Shown here one piece after another: positions 1 to 7,323 of a stretch of 64,000 nt of DNA. Source of the DNA: a virus (Duplodnaviria; Caudoviricetes). The notes beneath the pieces were generated by a model. The model was not told the origin of the DNA. It did no database searches and saw only the letters and a list, made by a program, of their open reading frames with translations. The DNA lies in IMG/VR virus record IMGVR_UViG_3300025018_000001, one strand, 5' to 3'. A program made the translations under genes and the position numbers. The stretch's first letter is position 1. Each line of letters starts with the position of its first letter.

Positions 1-18
1 AATCACAATAGTCTGTCA

Positions 19-729
19 TCATTTATTTACCTCTATATAGTAACAATCTGGAAAATTATACATAGTGCACCTTCTTCTTATAGTAGCCCTTGAAACACCA
101 AAACATTTTGCAGCCTCTAAGGTAGATGTAAAATATAAGTCATGCACTATACATTTTGTACTATGTGATGGTGGTGCGCCCTTTATATCTTTATTCCAAG
201 GAATGTTACCTTTTTTAAAATCTACTAAGCCAAGTTTTAACCTATCTTTTAGAGTTAGCTTTTTGCCATATAAGTAATTTTTAATTCCGAGCTTTTTACC
301 TTTCTTAGCCTTACTAATGTTTATTTTTTCCTCTTTAGTACGTGGAATATTTTTATTCCATGAGGGTTTACCTTTGAGCTTGGCCTTTATCATATCCATA
401 ACTTCTTTAGGATGTTTTTTACCATACATGTGGTTATCTCTACCATAAAATGTTGGAGGGTTTCCACCACCTTCTGTAATATTATAACAATTAGTATCCT
501 CTAAAAGTTCATCAGTAATAAAGTTCTTTTCAAAAGCATAAGCACTGGCTTCATCATAAAACAAAGCTAGTGTTTCTCGTGTAAAATTATTACGTCCATA
601 CTTTTTTATAGCTTGAAGTATAAGTTTACCAGAACCTAAATACAAAGTAGATTTTTTACTATTCACTTTATGTACACCAATATAGTATTTGTTATTAATA
701 AGATTTGTTGTTTTATATACTAACCACAT
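19..729 (-). CDS. GIY-YIG homing endonuclease (Seg-like) with NUMOD3-type repeats and C-terminal HTH
   Basis: N-terminal 'VYKTTNLINNKYYIGVH...YLGSG' GIY-YIG core, 'HMYGKKH', 'PSWNK', 'PWNK' NUMOD3-like repeats, C-terminal 'FTSTLEAAKCFGVSRATIRRRC' HTH. ATG abuts the stop of the upstream gene. Confidence 0.9.
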   Translation of the reverse strand: MWLVYKTTNLINNKYYIGVHKVNSKKSTLYLGSGKLILQAIKKYGRNNFTRETLALFYDEASAYAFEKNFITDELLEDTNCYNITEGGGNPPTFYGRDNHMYGKKHPKEVMDMIKAKLKGKPSWNKNIPRTKEEKINISKAKKGKKLGIKNYLYGKKLTLKDRLKLGLVDFKKGNIPWNKDIKGAPPSHSTKCIVHDLYFTSTLEAAKCFGVSRATIRRRCTMYNFPDCYYIEVNK

Positions 730-1683
730 TTAAAAGCTATCCTTAAATTTTGACAGTAGAAACATACCACAACTAGCTGCTATTTCAGCACCTGGTGATA
801 TCTGAACCTTTATATTTTTATGTTTTTCATATAAGGTATCTATAATACTATCAAAGTTTTTAGACTCTGTAAAAGTTGTACCATCACACTTATTGAATCG
901 TAAAAGACGCAACTCAATATTATCAAATACATCTAACAAACCTAATAAATAGGTTATGTCAATATCAGAATCGTTCACGCCATCAAAAAACATATGATGT
1001 AGTATAACAGTTATACCTTGTTGTTCTAGTTCTTTAAAATATTGTATGGCACTATATACATCTACTGTATGGGGTATCAACTCTTTTCTAGTACCTTCAA
1101 AAGCACTATGTACGGAATAGAAAATTCTAAAAGGTTGTCTATCAGTACCTTTTACATAATTACGTTTAGGATTTAGATGCATAGCCCAAACACTGTTAGA
1201 TAAAGCTTTTATATAATCAATCTCAGTTGTAGGTATTTTAGGTAAAGTAGTAGCTATGTCAACACCATCTATACCTAAAGACATATCAAATCCTTGTATA
1301 TAACTTGCTATATCTTCAGTTGCATTATATACTAACTCTGTGTCTAAAAAACCATCTCCCATACCCATCCAAGAAAGCTTGGTGTACATCTGTCTTAATT
1401 CAGGTCTTACTGTTAGCTCACTATTTAGTGCTTCTACTACGTTTAAAGCTATAGCTTCTGCGGATAAACGATGATAAGGGCATTTTTTAACTGTTAGGTA
1501 ACAAAACTTACAACCTACAGGACAACCCACAGAGCTACTTATAAATATATTATATTTGTTACCTATATTACCATAACCACCACACCCCACCTCTCCTGGA
1601 GGGGTGGTTTTTATTGCTGTCTCTGAGCCGTCATCATGTACATATTTAGCCACCTGCCCGTTTTTGGTTCTGTATACTTCCAT
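730..1683 (-). CDS. RlmN/Cfr-like radical SAM enzyme (divergent)
   Basis: 'ISSSVGCPVGCKFC' CxxxCxxC, 'MGMGD', 'YSVHS...R..LIP', 'GVND', C-terminal 'IAASCGM' parallel RlmN SSQVGC..C..C, MGMGEP, ISLHA, HVND and IDAACGQ. Confidence 0.85.
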   Translation of the reverse strand: MEVYRTKNGQVAKYVHDDGSETAIKTTPPGEVGCGGYGNIGNKYNIFISSSVGCPVGCKFCYLTVKKCPYHRLSAEAIALNVVEALNSELTVRPELRQMYTKLSWMGMGDGFLDTELVYNATEDIASYIQGFDMSLGIDGVDIATTLPKIPTTEIDYIKALSNSVWAMHLNPKRNYVKGTDRQPFRIFYSVHSAFEGTRKELIPHTVDVYSAIQYFKELEQQGITVILHHMFFDGVNDSDIDITYLLGLLDVFDNIELRLLRFNKCDGTTFTESKNFDSIIDTLYEKHKNIKVQISPGAEIAASCGMFLLSKFKDSF

Positions 1684-1691
1684 AAACCCTC

Positions 1692-2108
1692 CTACATTTT
1701 TTGTATAATAGCACTAACTAATTTACCATCGACAGAGGCACCAAAATGATTTTTTACAATTTTAACCGCTTGCATTTTATTACTAAGTGCAGAAAAATCT
1801 ATAGTGGTTATAAAAGACAACAACTCTTCCTTTGAAATCTGCTTGGGTAAATAGGTGTCAATTAAAGGTTTTAAAGTACTTACTGATGTAGGCACTAACT
1901 CTAGTAGTTTATCTTCACCTGCTACAATTAACTTTAATACGCGAATAGCTTGGTCATCTGATAAAACACTGCCTATGTATTCCTTACCATCTTTGGTACC
2001 TTTAAGTCTAGAAAATTCACCTAAGATATATTTTAAATCATTCGTATTGTCACTATGGGTTTTCATGGCTGTATGTAAGTCTTCTTTAAGTCTATCATGT
2101 AAAATCAT
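1692..2108 (-). CDS. GatB/YqeY domain protein
   Basis: 'LHDRLKEDLHTAMK...LKYILGE' start, 'YLPKQISKEEL', 'MQAVKIVKNHFGASVDGKLVSAII' match the YqeY pattern. Confidence 0.8.
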   Translation of the reverse strand: MILHDRLKEDLHTAMKTHSDNTNDLKYILGEFSRLKGTKDGKEYIGSVLSDDQAIRVLKLIVAGEDKLLELVPTSVSTLKPLIDTYLPKQISKEELLSFITTIDFSALSNKMQAVKIVKNHFGASVDGKLVSAIIQKM

Positions 2109-2127: not shown

Positions 2128-2877
2128 CTATTTTAAAACATATCTTTTACTTTGGTCTACATCGAAGTAGTAACGATTACTACCTTCCAAAAATTTATGG
2201 AAGTTAAAAATACCTGTCTTACGATCATACACCATAAGCCAAGCATATACTGGCTTTTCACCACGTATAACCTCTGTTATCATTTTTTTGGCGTAAAGTA
2301 ATTGACGTATAGTAGCATCTTTATCCTCAGAGTTTTTTGCTTCTACAATATGAATACTTTTAGCCCCCTCATAACAACCATCTACTTCTATTTGTACTTT
2401 TTCTACATCAAAGTCCATTTTCCCCAACTTAAATTTAAAAGATGCACGCCTTTTATTTCGTAGGGTCAACGAAACCTTTTCACCAAAACAATCATCCAAT
2501 ATACTATTATAGTGAGCCAAATCCAAGGCCATAGACTCTGTTTTAGACCCCTTAGCGAACCTATCTATAGTAAGTAATCCTTCCATTTTCTTAATTGGAT
2601 ACACACGCATACCAGAAATATCTGGGATTGGTATAAATGGGTTTTCTTTTGTAAGTCTATATTTACCATTTTTAATAGCAAGTACAGAGATATTATTATC
2701 TCGCATAATAGGTGGTTGTTTACTTTTGTTATCCATCTTAGCTAGTAACCTTGATTCTTCTCCTGTAATTTCCTTTAGTGTATCGGAAGTAACGTCAAGG
2801 TAACCATAAGTATTCACATGTTTAACTACATCCAACTGTTCAAAAATACCATTCCATGCCTGTCTAAATTTACTCAT
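2128..2877 (-). CDS. Putative type II restriction endonuclease (PD-(D/E)XK fold)
   Basis: 'QIEVDGCYEG...IHIVEAKN...IRQLLY' PD-(D/E)XK core. The N-terminus 'ESRLLAKMD...P.IMRDNNISVLAI..GKY' resembles, from memory, the DUF6996/DUF6997-type putative REases found next to Dam-like MTases. Directly downstream of the MTase. Confidence 0.6.
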   Translation of the reverse strand: MSKFRQAWNGIFEQLDVVKHVNTYGYLDVTSDTLKEITGEESRLLAKMDNKSKQPPIMRDNNISVLAIKNGKYRLTKENPFIPIPDISGMRVYPIKKMEGLLTIDRFAKGSKTESMALDLAHYNSILDDCFGEKVSLTLRNKRRASFKFKLGKMDFDVEKVQIEVDGCYEGAKSIHIVEAKNSEDKDATIRQLLYAKKMITEVIRGEKPVYAWLMVYDRKTGIFNFHKFLEGSNRYYFDVDQSKRYVLK

Positions 2878-2892
2878 TAAGTTATTCTCCTT

Positions 2893-3732
2893 TTATAAAA
2901 ATAAACCTGTACAACTTCCCTTGTAGTTTCTTATTAGAACTTCTCCTTTATCTTTTCTAGATTTAGCTGATGCACCTACACTGTGATAAACATCTATTGA
3001 ATTTATTTCAAAATCTTTGAATAAGTCTCTAGTTAAAGGTGTATCAGAATTAGATAGCAAAAACTTTGCACCTTGAGCGTCAACCAACTTACAGTAGTCA
3101 ACTATGCGCTCTTGGTCCTGTACTCCAAAACCAGCCGAAGTATAATTTGCAAAATTGGCTGTGTCCGAGTATGGTATATACGGTGGGTCAAGATAAATAA
3201 ATGTGTCTTTATTTACATAGTTTAAAGTCTCATAAAAATCAACATTTAAAATTAACGTTTTACGTAATATTTTAGAGACGCTTAAAATATGTTCTTCTTG
3301 GGGAAAAGTAACTTTGTCATACTTACCATACGGAGTGTTCATTTTTCCTTTGCTATTACTCCTCCATATACCGTTAAAGGCCGTTTTATTGAGATATAAA
3401 AAACGAGCTGCCCTACTTAAACATGATTTTTCATCACGCCAATCAATATCTCTATCTGTGGCTCTAACGATATAATACTCTTCTTCAGAAACTATAAAAA
3501 GTTTTGTTAAATTTAACAACTCTATAGGGTTATCTCTTATTTGTGTATAAAAATTTATAAGCTCCCTGTTAGCATCATTAATGATACCTATATTTGGATT
3601 TATGTAAAAAAATAATGCACCTCCTCCAATGAATGGCTCTATGTAATTTGTATATTCCAAAGGTACATATAGAGATAAGTATCTTATAAGTTTAGTTTTA
3701 CCTCCTACCCATTTTAATAACGGTTTAGGCAT
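2893..3732 (-). CDS. dam: Dam-family N6-adenine DNA methyltransferase
   Basis: 'KPLLKWVGGKT', 'EPFIGGGA', 'INDAN', 'YLNKTAFNG', 'YLDPPY', 'LSNS'. Start set at the ATG (MPKP) overlapping the HNH stop. Confidence 0.92.
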   Translation of the reverse strand: MPKPLLKWVGGKTKLIRYLSLYVPLEYTNYIEPFIGGGALFFYINPNIGIINDANRELINFYTQIRDNPIELLNLTKLFIVSEEEYYIVRATDRDIDWRDEKSCLSRAARFLYLNKTAFNGIWRSNSKGKMNTPYGKYDKVTFPQEEHILSVSKILRKTLILNVDFYETLNYVNKDTFIYLDPPYIPYSDTANFANYTSAGFGVQDQERIVDYCKLVDAQGAKFLLSNSDTPLTRDLFKDFEINSIDVYHSVGASAKSRKDKGEVLIRNYKGSCTGLFL

Positions 3733-4493
3733 TAAAGTCCTCCACATTGTTTAGTTAAATCTTTATGACATATATTACATAATAGTATATGACCAGCAGA
3801 ACTTATTGCATTAGTACCGTATTTGGCCACTTCCAGTGTATGATGCAATTCTACAACATCGCAAGTAGTACCACATTTTTCACAATAGTTATAACCTACC
3901 GCATCTAATTGAAGCTGCTTAAGATGTGTTGTTTGGCACGATCTGGCTTGTTCTTTATCAGAAGTACTTAGGTTAAGTATCGACTCTGGATCTACTAACG
4001 TGGTATTAAAATTGTAAACTTTACAAGATTGTTTGCATTTATCAGAACAATACATATTAGCATAACCACTTGGTGTTTTTATAAAGTTTTTTATTTCTTC
4101 AACTATAGGTGTATATAACTCTTTACAGTGATAACAGTTAATAACTACAAAATCACCCAATAAAGTAGCAGCGTATCCAGGATCTTTATCATTGATTTTT
4201 TCTATAAAATAAGGATTAGTGCATAAAGATCTATTATTAATTTTATTATTAGCATATTTTTTGTCCCTATTCTTTTCAAGATAGTTCTTGTCATATATAA
4301 TTCGTGTAGGTATACGTGAGTCTCTATAAGTTTTTAAACAACTTTTACAATTAGAAACAAGTTTGGTTAAAGAATCCTTACGTATCCCAAAAGCTTCCTT
4401 ATTCTGCACTTTACCACATTTCGAGCATTTTTTATATCCTCGTGCAAGTAAGGCTAAACGTAGCATTTTTTCATATTTTGATATACCAGCCAT
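3732..4493 (-). CDS. HNH endonuclease with N-terminal zinc-binding repeats (probable homing endonuclease)
   Basis: 'CSKCGK...NCKSC', 'CYHC...YCSDKC', C-terminal 'CEKCG...ELHH...LLCNICH' HNH module. Confidence 0.75.
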   Translation of the reverse strand: MAGISKYEKMLRLALLARGYKKCSKCGKVQNKEAFGIRKDSLTKLVSNCKSCLKTYRDSRIPTRIIYDKNYLEKNRDKKYANNKINNRSLCTNPYFIEKINDKDPGYAATLLGDFVVINCYHCKELYTPIVEEIKNFIKTPSGYANMYCSDKCKQSCKVYNFNTTLVDPESILNLSTSDKEQARSCQTTHLKQLQLDAVGYNYCEKCGTTCDVVELHHTLEVAKYGTNAISSAGHILLCNICHKDLTKQCGGL

Positions 4494-4752: not shown

Positions 4753-7323
4753 TTAACTACACCTTGAGTAAGTACATCCTTCTGAAATACATTTTATGCA
4801 CCCCTCTGTAAACATTAAACTATTTTCACCACATTTAGGACATTTATTCTCATCTCCAGTTAATTCATAGGTGCCAACATACTTACCTAAAACTCTAGAG
4901 ATAGCAGTACTAAAATCAGATATACTGCCATTTGTCTTCTTAAGTTGTTCCACAATGTATCTAGGTAGAGCACCATGACGTAAAGCCAAACTTAAGAGTC
5001 TTGTCATACCTTTCTGACCGTCAGTCATTAATATAGAAGCTAAATCCTTATAAATTACGGGAGACCTTCTAATAACTACATCCAATTCGTATCTTCCTTT
5101 ACCTTGTTTGCGTATTATACCATTGTTACAAGTTTTTGGCAAGTATAAATCTTCAGAGTTACCACAAAAAATCTCGTAAGGTTTCCCATCAAGTAATCCT
5201 ACAAGTACCGTCCACATTTCCCCCTTTATAGATGTATAGTAAATGTCACAAGGTAGTTCAGCAGGTCTTTTAGGTGCACAATTAGGCACTATACCTAAAG
5301 GCCTGTCTAATTCAGAGCAACCTCCGGGTTGTTTCTTTTCAAAATTAGCTTCACTGGTTTTTGGGTCTTCGAAAAGTAGAATACCTTCACGAGAACCATC
5401 AACATAAACAGATACTGCCCGCACACCATGATTAAATGCCTCCATATAAATATTTTCTACGTCTTTAATAGTAGATGTAGCTGGTAAATTATATGTGCAA
5501 CTGATTGCAGCGTCTACCCATCTGTATATTCCAGCCATTAATTTAATTTTTTGTAGTGGATCTATATAATGTGCTGGCTTAAAAAACCCTTTAGGTAGAT
5601 TTCTATTAATAATGTCGGCTAATTTAAGACCTATAGCACCATCTTCATCTAACACTGACCCAGGAAAAGCACTTAATAATTGATAGTCATAAGAATCAGC
5701 ATTCAATTTATCCAGTACATAGTTTTTTATTTTATCTGGTATAATAAAATAATGTATATATTTACCTTTGTCAATTGCACGGGTTCTTCTCCAATAATAA
5801 GGGCCTGGGAAAGGTTCTACCCCAGATGAAAAGCAAGGTATTGGAAATGTACTGGACAATGATCCAGTAGGTGCTACTGACATATGTGCCATATTACGCA
5901 TATACTTTACAGCACTATAATCCCCATCAAATAACTCATCTACTACATTTTTAAAATAAGTGGACCCCATAAAAGCCTTTGTATCTGAGACTAAATTAAA
6001 AGCTGGAGCATTCCCCTTCTCTTTACCTAAAGCCATAGATGCTTTAAATACTGCACAAGAGTAATGTTTAAAAAACTCGCCCACATTGGCTATAGCCTCA
6101 TCGGAATCATAAGCTAAATCTTGCTTAAGAAGCCAACCATGAATATTTGTTATACCCATTCCTATTTCTCTAGTTTGTTCCAGAATCCAAGCTTGTTCTT
6201 TCAATGGAGAAAGTTTATTACGCGCTTCATAAGTAATAACATTATCGGACATACGTACCATATATGGTACTATATAAGCTAATTCTTGTGCATACTCCTC
6301 CGCGTTAGTCGAGAACATAGCATTATTCGGTGAAAGAAGATTACATACTCCATAGGGAGGTAAACTTTTTTCAGAGCACGCATTAGTACTAATTATTTTA
6401 AATCGTTTATCACCTGTGTCTAAAAATATTTGATGTACCATAGACCCTTCTCGTAATAGATCTATATATTGTACTCCTGGCTCAGCGTGCTTAAATGCTT
6501 GTTCCGCTATTAAATCAAATAACTCCTTAGCAGGAACAAATTTAGATATTCGTTCATACTTACTACCTTCTTCGAAATCAAAGTACAACTCCCAAGAAGC
6601 ATCTGCCTTAACAGCTTCAATAAATTTATTAGATATTTGAACAGATATATTTGCATTCTCAAGAATACCTTTTTCTGACTTTGCTCTGATAAATTCATAT
6701 ATGTCTGGGTGATGAACCTTAAGACTTACAAGTATAGCAGGTTTCCTACCTTTCTGTCCGACCCATTCTCCATTGTCTACTAACTTACAAATCCAAGGAA
6801 CAGCTCCTGTAGACTCTTCAGCAGCGTTATTAACAGGGGCACCTCTAGGACGTAGCGCAGATGAATCAAAACCCAATCCCTGTCTAAAAGCTGCGCATTT
6901 CATAATATCATAGTCACATTTAGAAATACTTTCCAAACTATCTTCTGCTAAAGGTAATGTGGTACAATTTAATAGTGATTTTAAGCTTGTAGCACCTACA
7001 CCAGCTAATACACTACCTCCTGGTCTAAACCACCCTGACCACATTAAGGCAAACCACAGAGCACAATATTTTTCTTGTAACTCTTCCGTTTCCTCCATAG
7101 CTGCCAAACCGGAAGCTACACGCTGAAAAACATCTGCTGGCGTCTCTATTCTAGCATAAGGAGTATCAGTATCTGTAATTACTTTACCATCTGCATCCCA
7201 CTTTGTACAATACTTTGTGTCAAACATCTTATGCGCATACTCATCATGTGTAAAATAATCTCTACTAGAAATAGTCTTCACATTCTCATATTTTATTACT
7301 TCAAAAATTTCATCTGATAACAT
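4753..7323 (-). CDS. nrdJ: Class II (adenosylcobalamin-dependent) ribonucleotide reductase with fused C-terminal domain
   Basis: 'LLNCTT', 'QGLGFD', 'GRKPA', 'NANISV', 'EPGV', 'STNACSE', 'SVAPTGSLS', 'SSGVEP', 'AISCTYNLP'; C-terminal 'RPAELP...KPYEIF' and 'CPKCGE...EGCIKC'. No intein seen. Confidence 0.92.
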   Translation of the reverse strand: MLSDEIFEVIKYENVKTISSRDYFTHDEYAHKMFDTKYCTKWDADGKVITDTDTPYARIETPADVFQRVASGLAAMEETEELQEKYCALWFALMWSGWFRPGGSVLAGVGATSLKSLLNCTTLPLAEDSLESISKCDYDIMKCAAFRQGLGFDSSALRPRGAPVNNAAEESTGAVPWICKLVDNGEWVGQKGRKPAILVSLKVHHPDIYEFIRAKSEKGILENANISVQISNKFIEAVKADASWELYFDFEEGSKYERISKFVPAKELFDLIAEQAFKHAEPGVQYIDLLREGSMVHQIFLDTGDKRFKIISTNACSEKSLPPYGVCNLLSPNNAMFSTNAEEYAQELAYIVPYMVRMSDNVITYEARNKLSPLKEQAWILEQTREIGMGITNIHGWLLKQDLAYDSDEAIANVGEFFKHYSCAVFKASMALGKEKGNAPAFNLVSDTKAFMGSTYFKNVVDELFDGDYSAVKYMRNMAHMSVAPTGSLSSTFPIPCFSSGVEPFPGPYYWRRTRAIDKGKYIHYFIIPDKIKNYVLDKLNADSYDYQLLSAFPGSVLDEDGAIGLKLADIINRNLPKGFFKPAHYIDPLQKIKLMAGIYRWVDAAISCTYNLPATSTIKDVENIYMEAFNHGVRAVSVYVDGSREGILLFEDPKTSEANFEKKQPGGCSELDRPLGIVPNCAPKRPAELPCDIYYTSIKGEMWTVLVGLLDGKPYEIFCGNSEDLYLPKTCNNGIIRKQGKGRYELDVVIRRSPVIYKDLASILMTDGQKGMTRLLSLALRHGALPRYIVEQLKKTNGSISDFSTAISRVLGKYVGTYELTGDENKCPKCGENSLMFTEGCIKCISEGCTYSRCS

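What the first reader, a model, noticed from the sequence alone, without database searches (positions are those of the whole stretch)
730..1683. Phage RlmN/Cfr-like radical SAM enzyme with the resolving cysteine replaced by Phe
Seen: the protein keeps the CxxxCxxC cluster motif and the C-terminal methyl-carrier Cys (AASCGM, codon 769-771, equivalent to RlmN C355). The position seven residues before the first cluster Cys is Phe (FISSSVGC, codon 1543-1545), where RlmN has C118 (CVSSQVGC). It also lacks RlmN's N-terminal ~85-aa domain and has an extra Cys in an upstream insertion (GEVGCGG). Known: in RlmN/Cfr, C118 resolves the covalent enzyme-RNA intermediate, and C118 mutants stay cross-linked to RNA. 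Inference: this enzyme may use the inserted Cys as an alternative resolver, catalyse different chemistry, or act as a suicide cross-linker of host rRNA/tRNA.
Basis: partly seen in the sequence, partly recalled or inferred. Interest (0 to 1): 0.75.

Follow-up and report, generated by a model that had tools for sequence, protein, structure and literature searches.

The report
Phage RlmN-like enzyme lacking resolving cysteine
A giant phage encodes a shortened relative of the RNA-methylating enzymes RlmN and Cfr that keeps the methyl-carrying cysteine but has lost the second "essential" cysteine, and so has a whole phage-only clade, so these enzymes must finish their reaction in a way not yet described.

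Summary
ORF 730..1683(-) encodes a 317-aa radical SAM protein. It has C54xxxC58xxC61, Phe47 where RlmN has Cys118, and Cys305 where RlmN has Cys355. It lacks RlmN residues 1-81. The predicted fold matches RlmN (Z 25.6), ahead of Cfr (18.4).

The Phe is not an error or decay. On a tree of 156 sequences rooted on canonical RlmN, four basal short RlmN-likes keep the Cys. A single well-supported branch leads to 150 rows with no Cys at this site (V/I at the base, then F). The family is almost entirely viral: 3 MAG hits among 185,579 prokaryote species.

It sits in a variable, low-confidence loop. A better candidate is Cys266 (RFNKC; E. coli RlmN has F314 there). It is present in 119 of the 120 closest homologues and 173 of 222 overall, and His most often replaces it. 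Basal members, including cultured Klebsiella phage 05F01, have neither cysteine.

Best reading: an active methyl-cysteine radical SAM methylase of a nucleic-acid base, with the resolving function moved or replaced. The substrate is unknown. I found no description of this in the literature. It is a new variant of a known kind.

The parts
730..1683 (-). Gene for the 317-aa RlmN/Cfr-like radical SAM protein (P0001); the range includes the stop codon
   Evidence: ORF list and translation. Family scores: TIGR00048 RlmN 52.7 bits against a cut-off of 290. The AF2 model has pLDDT 91.4. Structural matches: RlmN Z 25.6, Cfr Z 18.4.
1688..1693 (-). Ribosome-binding site AGGAGG, four bases before the ATG, overlapping the TAG stop of the upstream YqeY-like gene
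   Evidence: Read directly from the sequence.
1501..1524 (-). Radical SAM cluster motif C54-PVG-C58-KF-C61
   Evidence: All three Cys are invariant in 120/120 close homologues. They align to RlmN C125/C129/C132.
1543..1545 (-). Phe47 (TTT), at the position of the resolving/general-base Cys118 of RlmN
   Evidence: Gap-free alignments. Phe in 119/120 close homologues. One Cys to non-Cys change on the tree.
1558..1605 (-). Variable loop, residues 27-42, inserted relative to RlmN; it holds Cys34 (codon 1582-1584) of GEVGCGG
   Evidence: The loop varies in length and sequence. Cys is absent from it in 34/120 homologues. Mean pLDDT is 67 for residues 31-40.
1366..1368 (-). Met106 in SWMGMGD, equivalent to RlmN Met176 (proposed to stabilise the cysteinyl radical)
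   Evidence: Alignment register query p = RlmN p+70. Invariant in the family and in the outgroup. The role of M176 is taken from PMC9692996.
886..888 (-). Cys266 (TGT) in RFNKC, just after strand beta-6; E. coli RlmN has F314 here. It is a clade-specific second non-cluster cysteine and the candidate relocated resolver
   Evidence: 119/120 close homologues and 173/222 of the wider set have Cys; His is the commonest alternative. Some members have only cluster Cys + C266 + C305. Equivalence to F314 was counted from the HMMER alignment and from hhalign.
769..771 (-). Cys305 in AASCGMF, equivalent to the methyl-carrier Cys355 of RlmN (C338 of Cfr), on a flexible C-terminal loop
   Evidence: Alignments. 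220/222 conserved. pLDDT is below 50 at residues 305-307; RlmN's C355 loop is likewise described as flexible (PMC9692996).
1692..2108 (-). Upstream neighbour in the same transcription direction: a 138-aa YqeY-like protein (context only; linkage holds only in the closest relatives)
   Evidence: Pfam PF09424 YqeY, 29.7 bits against a cut-off of 27. A homologue is adjacent or nearby only in L006 and L007.

Best explanation
The gene encodes an active class-A-type (RlmN/Cfr-like) radical SAM methylase that works by the methyl-cysteine route. One SAM methylates Cys305. A second SAM is cleaved at the C54/C58/C61 [4Fe-4S] cluster. The 5'-dA radical then makes a Cys305-S-CH2 radical, which adds to an sp2 carbon of a nucleic-acid base, most probably an adenine of a tRNA of the phage or the host.

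The step that releases the enzyme from the covalent adduct is deprotonation of the attacked carbon, done by Cys118 in RlmN. Here that position cannot do it, because it is a conserved Phe. In the crown clade that holds this protein, the job most likely falls to residue 266 (Cys, or His in some members). This residue sits just after strand beta-6, next to the strand from which the Cys305 loop emerges. Earlier-branching members have neither cysteine and must use another base, solvent or a trans-acting thiol.

Shown: fold, motifs, residue equivalences, the single ancient loss of the Cys, the later gain of Cys266, and restriction to viruses. Inferred: that the enzyme methylates, that residue 266 is the base, and that the substrate is tRNA.
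For: 1. RlmN is clearly the closest fold: Foldseek E about 1e-15; VIA-align Z 25.6 over model 1-316 against RlmN 82-367, Cfr Z 18.4, generic radical SAM enzymes about 16. The profile-profile comparison gives prob 98.9%.
2. The apparatus of the methyl-Cys mechanism is kept under strong selection. This includes the cluster Cys, the GMG(D/E) SAM motif, Met106 (RlmN M176), Glu21 (aligned to the Glu of RlmN's VETV strand), Asn264 (N312) and the (A/S)CG(Q/M)F loop with Cys305, conserved in 220/222.
3. Position 47 changed from Cys once, on a branch with SH-aLRT 99. It stayed non-Cys in 150 rows thinned to below 60% identity, so the enzyme has functioned without it for a long time.
4. Cys266 arose inside that clade and is kept in 119/120 close homologues.
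5. The smallest Cys inventories in the crown are exactly cluster + C266 + C305 (P0120, P0127, P0128, P0173).
6. The commonest replacement at 266 is His (10 rows), although Cys to His needs two nucleotide changes. This is the pattern expected of an acid/base or ligand residue.
7. The current RlmN mechanism gives C118 the role of a general base rather than an obligatory disulfide partner, so another base could do the job chemically (PMC9692996).
8. There are weak hints towards tRNA. Neighbours in different phages include YqeY-like, Thg1-like, RNA ligase, Pth2 and 2H phosphoesterase genes. Earlier notes of this scan report tRNA genes in this phage (untested here).
Against: No coordinates of the model were available, so the distance from residue 266 to Cys305 or to the substrate site was not measured. 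Its proximity is inferred from strand topology only. 39 of 212 clade members have no Cys at or next to position 266 (Cys at the exact column in 173 of 222), and 25 of 212 have neither that nor a loop Cys, including Klebsiella phage 05F01 and Brevundimonas phage Bajun. Residue 266 therefore cannot be a universal solution. Gene neighbourhood is not conserved across the family, and many neighbours are nucleotide or DNA metabolism genes, so the tRNA assignment is weak. Loss of the N-terminal domain and 11 clade-specific invariant residues (H16, K25, S51, N81, R186, F188, R259, R262, E273, K292, Q294) point to a substrate or binding mode unlike RlmN's. No biochemical data exist for any member, as far as my literature searches show.
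Confidence: 0.42

Rival explanations
1. It is a true one-cysteine methylase. The enzyme methylates by the methyl-Cys305 route, but the adduct is resolved by a non-cysteine base (for example clade-specific His16, or Asp142 or His229), by solvent or substrate, or by a diffusible or protein thiol such as a phage thioredoxin or glutaredoxin. Cys266 would be incidental or would have another role.
For: The loss of Cys47 came before the gain of Cys266 on the tree. Basal lineages, including cultured Klebsiella phage 05F01, have neither cysteine. Bajun has only cluster Cys + Cys305. Several polar residues are invariant in the clade but differ in relatives that keep Cys47.
Against: Retention of Cys266 (119/120 close homologues) and its recurrent replacement by His argue for a function at that site in the crown clade. 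No candidate base could be placed in space.
Confidence: 0.22
2. It has the same scaffold but different chemistry. Cys305 is not a methyl carrier. It could be, for example, a hydrogen-atom donor, as the active-site Cys of spore photoproduct lyase is, or the enzyme could act on a free nucleotide or on DNA rather than RNA. A resolving Cys would then never be needed.
For: The RNA-binding N-terminal domain is gone. The substrate-facing floor is rebuilt: C118 to F and Q122 to S, plus new invariant Arg and Lys residues R186, R259, R262, K25 and K292. The gene usually sits in nucleotide or DNA metabolism modules, with neighbours such as RNR, Dam, a PurZ-like gene, IMPDH/GMP reductase, nucleoside deoxyribosyltransferase and NMNAT. 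The family scores far below the RlmN and Cfr equivalog cut-offs.
Against: The C-terminal loop motif is nearly identical to that of RlmN/Cfr, and Met176 and the other mechanism-linked residues are kept. No known radical SAM enzyme with this scaffold does anything but C-methylate adenine.
Confidence: 0.2
3. It is a single-turnover cross-linker. Without a resolving residue, the enzyme ends covalently attached to host rRNA or tRNA and so poisons host translation.
For: RlmN C118A/S and Cfr C105A stay cross-linked to RNA (PMC9692996). The natural enzyme has Phe at that site.
Against: It would act stoichiometrically against abundant ribosomes or tRNAs that the phage itself needs. The later gain and retention of Cys/His266 is hard to explain on this view. 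P0001's net charge is acidic (pI 5.5), which is not what a dedicated RNA trap would suggest. There is no toxin-like context.
Confidence: 0.06
4. It is an inactive relic or a sequencing artefact.
For: TTT (Phe) and TGT (Cys) differ by a single base.
Against: 119/120 homologues share the Phe. There are 25 invariant and 42 nearly invariant columns across proteins down to 37% identity. The ORF is intact with a strong RBS, and the model is confident.
Confidence: 0.02

Closest known systems
RlmN (dual-specificity 23S rRNA A2503 / tRNA A37 C2-methyltransferase; class A radical SAM methylase; PDB 3RFA, 5HR7)
   Same: The fold matches: partial barrel, N-terminal beta extension and C-terminal loop (Z 25.6, rmsd 3.1 A over 268 residues). 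Shared sequence features are the CX3CX2C motif, the GMG SAM motif, the Met176 equivalent, the Asn312 equivalent, and the methyl-carrier Cys in an (A/S)CG(Q/M) loop.
   Different: It has no N-terminal helical domain (RlmN residues 1-81). Cys118 is replaced by Phe and Gln122 by Ser. There is an insertion of about 35 aa between beta-3 and beta-4 with a conserved LNP motif. A new Cys lies at the F314 position. Identity is only about 20%, and TIGR00048 scores 52.7 bits against a cut-off of 290. The family is restricted to viruses.
Cfr (23S rRNA A2503 C8-methyltransferase; PDB 9P0P)
   Same: It has the same class A scaffold and C-terminal methyl-carrier Cys (NCBIfam CfrAB 42.3 bits; Z 18.4).
   Different: Cfr also needs its second Cys (C105) (PMC9692996). 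The phage protein is structurally closer to RlmN than to Cfr, and nothing links it to antibiotic resistance.
Short RlmN-like proteins that keep Cys47 (P0228, P0249, P0255, P0262; metagenomic)
   Same: They also lack the N-terminal domain, they share family-type motifs (LRILRYN, AACGQF), and they branch at the base of the family tree.
   Different: They keep the C118-equivalent Cys and score 125-136 bits on TIGR00048. They look like the two-cysteine ancestors of the Cys-less clade.
Klebsiella phage 05F01 gene_104 product BBK09218.1 ('radical SAM protein') and Brevundimonas phage Bajun UTC29762.1 ('methyltransferase')
   Same: They belong to the same Cys47-less clade, in cultured phages (31% and 23% identity).
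   Different: Position 47 is Val in 05F01 and Tyr in Bajun. Neither has Cys266, and Bajun has no Cys besides the cluster ligands and the C-terminal one. Neither protein has been characterised.

Membership tests
Class A radical SAM methylases (RlmN/Cfr) | CX3CX2C motif that ligates the radical SAM [4Fe-4S] cluster | tested here: met
   C54/C58/C61 are invariant in 120/120 homologues.
Class A radical SAM methylases (RlmN/Cfr) | RlmN-type fold: partial barrel with a beta extension and a C-terminal loop | tested here: met
   The AF2 model has pLDDT 91.4. Foldseek E is 8e-16 to 1e-13 against RlmN chains. VIA-align gives Z 25.6 for RlmN and 18.4 for Cfr.
Class A radical SAM methylases (RlmN/Cfr) | Methyl-carrier cysteine on the C-terminal loop (RlmN C355, Cfr C338) | tested here: met
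   Cys305 in AASCGMF aligns to C355 and is conserved in 220/222 relatives. Whether it is methylated cannot be tested here.
Class A radical SAM methylases (RlmN/Cfr) | Second conserved cysteine that resolves the adduct (RlmN C118, Cfr C105), seven residues before the first cluster Cys | tested here: not met
   Phe47 occupies this site. The clade has F, V, I, L, M or Y here, and never Cys in 150 tree rows.
RlmN (TIGR00048 equivalog) | Score above the curated equivalog cut-off | tested here: not met
   52.7 bits against a cut-off of 290. The Cfr models score 37-42 bits against cut-offs of 468-550.
RlmN (TIGR00048 equivalog) | N-terminal RlmN_N (PF21016) helical domain | tested here: not met
   Pfam finds no hit. 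The model starts at RlmN residue 82 in the superposition.
RlmN / Cfr | C2 or C8 methylation of A2503 in 23S rRNA, or of A37 in tRNA | not testable with these tools
   This needs biochemistry or nucleoside mass spectrometry.

The most novel reading that the evidence does not exclude
A large phage-only lineage of class A radical SAM methylases has dispensed with the 'indispensable' resolving cysteine. It completes catalysis with a relocated Cys/His at position 266, or in basal members with no second cysteine at all. It acts on a substrate other than A2503/A37, for example phage tRNA at another site, phage DNA adenine, or a free purine nucleotide. That would define a new mechanistic subclass and possibly a new C-methylated base in phage biology.
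Probability: 0.3. Interest if true: 0.85.

Novelty: new variant of a known kind. Interest (0 to 1): 0.64.

Why it matters
Class A radical SAM methylases are defined in the literature by two conserved cysteines, and mutating the second one in RlmN or Cfr kills turnover and traps the enzyme on RNA (PMC9692996). This natural, old and diverse clade lacks that residue: 139 clusters at 50% identity score E <= 1e-30. It therefore tests what the second cysteine is really for, general base or disulfide partner, and it shows that evolution found at least one other solution. The family also gives phages a radical C-methylation activity whose target is unknown, which may point to an undescribed modification of tRNA, rRNA, DNA or nucleotides during infection. 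Two cultured phages, Klebsiella phage 05F01 and Brevundimonas phage Bajun, carry members, so the question can be tested directly.

Tried and rejected
1. GEVGC Cys34 as resolver: rejected. It is not conserved and lies in a variable, low-confidence loop.

2. Cys50 (present in some members, and also in Sphaerobacter RlmN 'CVSCQVGC'): rejected as a substitute. It is present in only 34 of 212 members, and by beta-strand alternation it should face away from position 47. The second point is inference.

3. A conserved partner gene: none found. I clustered ORFs around 30 loci, and no neighbour family is shared beyond close relatives. YqeY adjacency holds only in the window, L006 and L007. Thg1 adjacency holds only in one near-identical group.

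4. In related phages, B has Gly at the C118 position and no C-terminal Cys loop, so it cannot supply the missing Cys. It is present in only 4 of 22 records and absent from complete ones.

5. Fused domains in longer family members (P0183, P0189, P0204, P0108): Pfam found no informative extra domain.

6. Isoelectric point as a clue to an RNA substrate: uninformative. The family median is 7.1, the range is 4.9-9.2, and P0001 is 5.5.

7. PurZ-like gene, as seen next to the orthologue in L007: none in the window.

8. tRNA genes in the window: none.

9. Whole-genome search: no genome is held for this window.

10. Literature: four searches found no paper on phage RlmN/Cfr-like enzymes or on natural loss of C118. 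The primary RlmN structure and mechanism papers are not held, so active-site geometry around F314 could not be checked.

12. Model coordinates are not exposed by the tools, so no distances were measured.

Full report
**What is there.** The minus strand of the window carries an intact 317-codon ORF at 730..1683. An AGGAGG ribosome-binding site lies four bases before its ATG and overlaps the stop codon of the upstream gene. The genes are tightly packed and co-directional. In transcription order they are: class II ribonucleotide reductase (4753-7323), a small ORF, a 253-aa Cys-rich ORF (3732-4493), Dam-type methylase (2893-3747), a DUF6996/DUF6997 protein (2128-2877), a YqeY-like protein (1692-2108), this gene, and a 236-aa ORF with a GIY-YIG-like N-terminus (19-729). 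Earlier notes of this scan describe the replicon as a jumbo phage with its own tRNA genes. P0001's 90%-identity cluster (3 member sequences) is recorded on 9 contigs, the longest 264 kb.

**Checking the observation.**
- The protein has C54-x3-C58-x2-C61.
- HMMER against PDB sequences aligns YNIFISSSVGC to TTVCVSCQVGC (Sphaerobacter enzyme, 6FZ6) and to ATLAVSSQVGC (E. coli RlmN C118A, 4PL1/5HR6) without gaps. Phe47 therefore falls on C118.
- The same alignments put Cys305 (AASCGMF) on C355 (AACGQL), Met106 on Met176, Asn264 on Asn312 and Cys266 on Phe314 (counted from the printed register).
- A profile-profile comparison of the family with a canonical gammaproteobacterial RlmN gives the same equivalences (prob 98.9%, E 1.6e-17).
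- NCBIfam ranks RlmN first (52.7 bits), followed by Cfr and other RlmN-family models, all far below their equivalog cut-offs (290 to 633 bits). Pfam sees only a weak Radical_SAM match and no RlmN_N domain.
- An AlphaFold2 model built on 120 homologues is confident: mean pLDDT 91.4, pTM 0.90. The exceptions are the loop at residues 31-40 (mean 67) and the C-terminal loop around Cys305 (below 50), where RlmN's methyl-Cys loop is also mobile (PMC9692996).
- Foldseek finds RlmN chains first (E 8e-16 to 1e-13), then Cfr (3e-9).
- VIA-align gives Z 25.6 for RlmN, with model 1..316 on chain 82..367. Cfr scores 18.4 and unrelated radical SAM enzymes about 16.

**Is the Phe real and conserved?** The large protein database holds 292 relatives at E <= 0.001. 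The best 120 have 37-77% identity and lengths of 300-394 aa, most of them 300-345 aa. In their alignment, position 47 is Phe in 119 and Leu in one, while the three cluster Cys and Cys305 are invariant or nearly so.

An exhaustive profile search of 1.84 billion cluster representatives finds 139 clusters at E <= 1e-30. In 222 full-length sequences, position 47 is F189/V14/I4/L3/C4, with a few other residues in the rest. I built a maximum-likelihood tree of 156 rows, thinned to below 60% identity except for a few rows I forced in, and rooted it on two canonical RlmN sequences.
- Four short RlmN-like proteins that still have the Cys (P0228, P0249, P0255, P0262) branch at the base.
- A single branch (SH-aLRT 99, length 0.7) then leads to 150 rows, none of which has Cys at this site. 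Parsimony needs exactly one change.
- The four Cys-keeping proteins also score higher on the RlmN model (two of them tested: 125 and 136 bits), as intermediates would.

The loss is ancient and maintained.

**Where the family lives.** A pattern scan of one genome for each of 185,579 prokaryote species found only three loci, all on MAG contigs. The ESM Atlas neighbours are 75-89% viral. IMG/VR yields 24 loci, most of them on contigs of 27-543 kb. Among cultured phages, only five records match. They include Klebsiella phage 05F01 (Stephanstirmvirinae, 31% identity, annotated 'radical SAM protein') and Brevundimonas phage Bajun (23%, 'methyltransferase'). At position 47, 05F01 has Val and Bajun has Tyr.

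**The proposed alternative cysteine.** Cys34 lies in a loop (residues 27-42) that is inserted relative to RlmN and varies in length and sequence.
- 34 of the 120 closest homologues have no Cys before Lys43.
- These include most relatives at 52-59% identity, which read ...EFGGVYGKV... there.
- Where a Cys is present, it sits at different positions (SSC, SCGG, DCGG).

It is therefore not a credible conserved catalytic residue, although 138 of 212 clade members do have some Cys in the loop.

**A better candidate.** The only other non-cluster Cys conserved with Cys305 is Cys266 in the motif (L/I)LR(F/Y)NxC, two residues after the Asn312 equivalent at the end of strand beta-6.
- It is present in 119 of the 120 close homologues and in 173 of 222 overall.
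- On the tree it is absent from the basal V/I47 lineages. A few F47 lineages just below the crown have His, and nearly the whole crown has Cys. Parsimony counts 19 changes among Cys, His and other residues.
- His is the commonest replacement (10 rows), although Cys to His needs two base changes.
- Several crown members have exactly five cysteines: the cluster ligands, C266 and C305.
- Strand beta-6 (257-261) and the last strand (291-294), from which the Cys305 loop emerges, are consecutive strands in the model. If they pair as in RlmN, residue 266 and the Cys305 loop leave the same edge of the sheet. This is a topological inference. I could not measure distances because the tools do not expose coordinates.

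**What else changed.** I compared the Cys47-less clade with the six sequences that keep the Cys.
- Shared residues: K13, E21, K/R43, S49, the cluster motif, M106, GxG, S190, R199, P204, N237-D238, N264, G298 and C305-G306.
- Clade-specific invariant residues: H16, K25, S51 (Gln in RlmN), N81, R186, F188, R259, R262, E273, K292 and Q294.
- There is also an insertion of about 35 residues between beta-3 and beta-4 with a conserved LNP motif.

The SAM and methyl-Cys machinery is thus kept, while the substrate-facing surfaces are rebuilt.

**Mechanistic reading.** According to the review PMC9692996, class A enzymes use two conserved cysteines. C355 carries the methyl group and forms the adduct. C118 points straight at the attacked carbon from the opposite side and most likely acts as the general base whose deprotonation triggers radical fragmentation. 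C118 and Cfr C105 variants stay cross-linked.

With Phe in that place, the phage enzymes must deprotonate from elsewhere or do something different. I favour an active methylase in which residue 266 (Cys or His) took over in the crown clade (confidence about 0.42). The alternatives are:
- a true one-cysteine enzyme that uses another base, solvent or an external thiol (0.22);
- different chemistry or a non-RNA substrate on the same scaffold (0.20);
- a single-turnover cross-linker (0.06);
- decay or artefact (0.02).

The basal members without either cysteine show that residue 266 cannot be the whole story.

**Substrate.** Context gives only hints. Neighbours differ between phages. Some are tRNA or RNA-repair genes: a YqeY-like gene next door here and eight genes upstream in 05F01, a Thg1-like gene, RNA ligase, Pth2 and 2H phosphoesterase. 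Many are nucleotide or DNA metabolism genes: RNR, Dam and other DNA methylases, UDG, a PurZ-like adenylosuccinate synthetase, IMPDH/GMP reductase, nucleoside deoxyribosyltransferase and NMNAT-like genes. I rank tRNA first because the closest characterised enzyme modifies tRNA and rRNA, and because these phages invest heavily in tRNA biology. This is inference.

**Comparison with the known.** The protein works like, and descends from, RlmN/Cfr. It fails three membership features that I tested: the second cysteine, the N-terminal domain and the equivalog score. I therefore file it as a new variant of the class A radical SAM methylases and not as RlmN or Cfr. Four full-text searches found no description of phage RlmN-like enzymes or of natural C118 loss. 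That is absence in the held library only.

**Verdict.** Interest is 0.64. The most novel reading, a new mechanistic subclass with a new target, has a probability of about 0.3.

Noticed in passing
It matches TIGR00048 positions about 100-244 (71 bits). It has Gly at the C118 position and ends shortly after strand beta-6, with no C-terminal Cys loop, so it lacks both catalytic cysteines. In one complete 276-kb phage it lies about 230 bases downstream of the family member; in others it is 40-50 kb away. It is present in 4 of 22 records.
   Followed up: partly
L007:4918-5949 (+): In a phage whose orthologue is 70% identical, a 344-aa adenylosuccinate-synthetase-like gene sits between the YqeY-like gene and the radical SAM gene (PF00709, E 5.9e-26). 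It is PurZ-sized, so 2-aminoadenine DNA is a possibility. No counterpart exists in the window.
   Followed up: partly
L039:3704-4984 (+) (Klebsiella phage 05F01 gene_103): A 426-aa protein with eukaryote-type WGR, PARP regulatory and PARP catalytic domains lies directly upstream of the radical SAM gene in a cultured Klebsiella phage.
   Followed up: no
window 2128-2877 (-): The 249-aa protein between Dam and YqeY matches DUF6996 + DUF6997 (E 6.6e-20 and 4.1e-24). Another first-stage note reads it as a PD-(D/E)XK nuclease paired with the Dam methylase.
   Followed up: no
window 19-729 (-): The 236-aa ORF whose ATG directly follows the radical SAM gene's stop codon has a GIY-YIG-like N-terminus by eye (YKTTNLINNKYYIGVH). 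Pfam gave no hit at E <= 0.001. It is possibly a homing endonuclease inserted beside the gene. Homologues occur in four other loci (family 16).
   Followed up: no
L042:2549-3433 (+): A third radical SAM gene (294 aa; weak MoaA and viperin family matches, 44 and 42 bits) lies directly downstream of paralogue B in the phage with the 73% orthologue.
   Followed up: no
L001:3210-3980 (+): A Thg1-like gene (tRNA-His guanylyltransferase family, 256 aa) lies immediately upstream of the family member in a group of phage contigs of roughly 90-150 kb.
   Followed up: no
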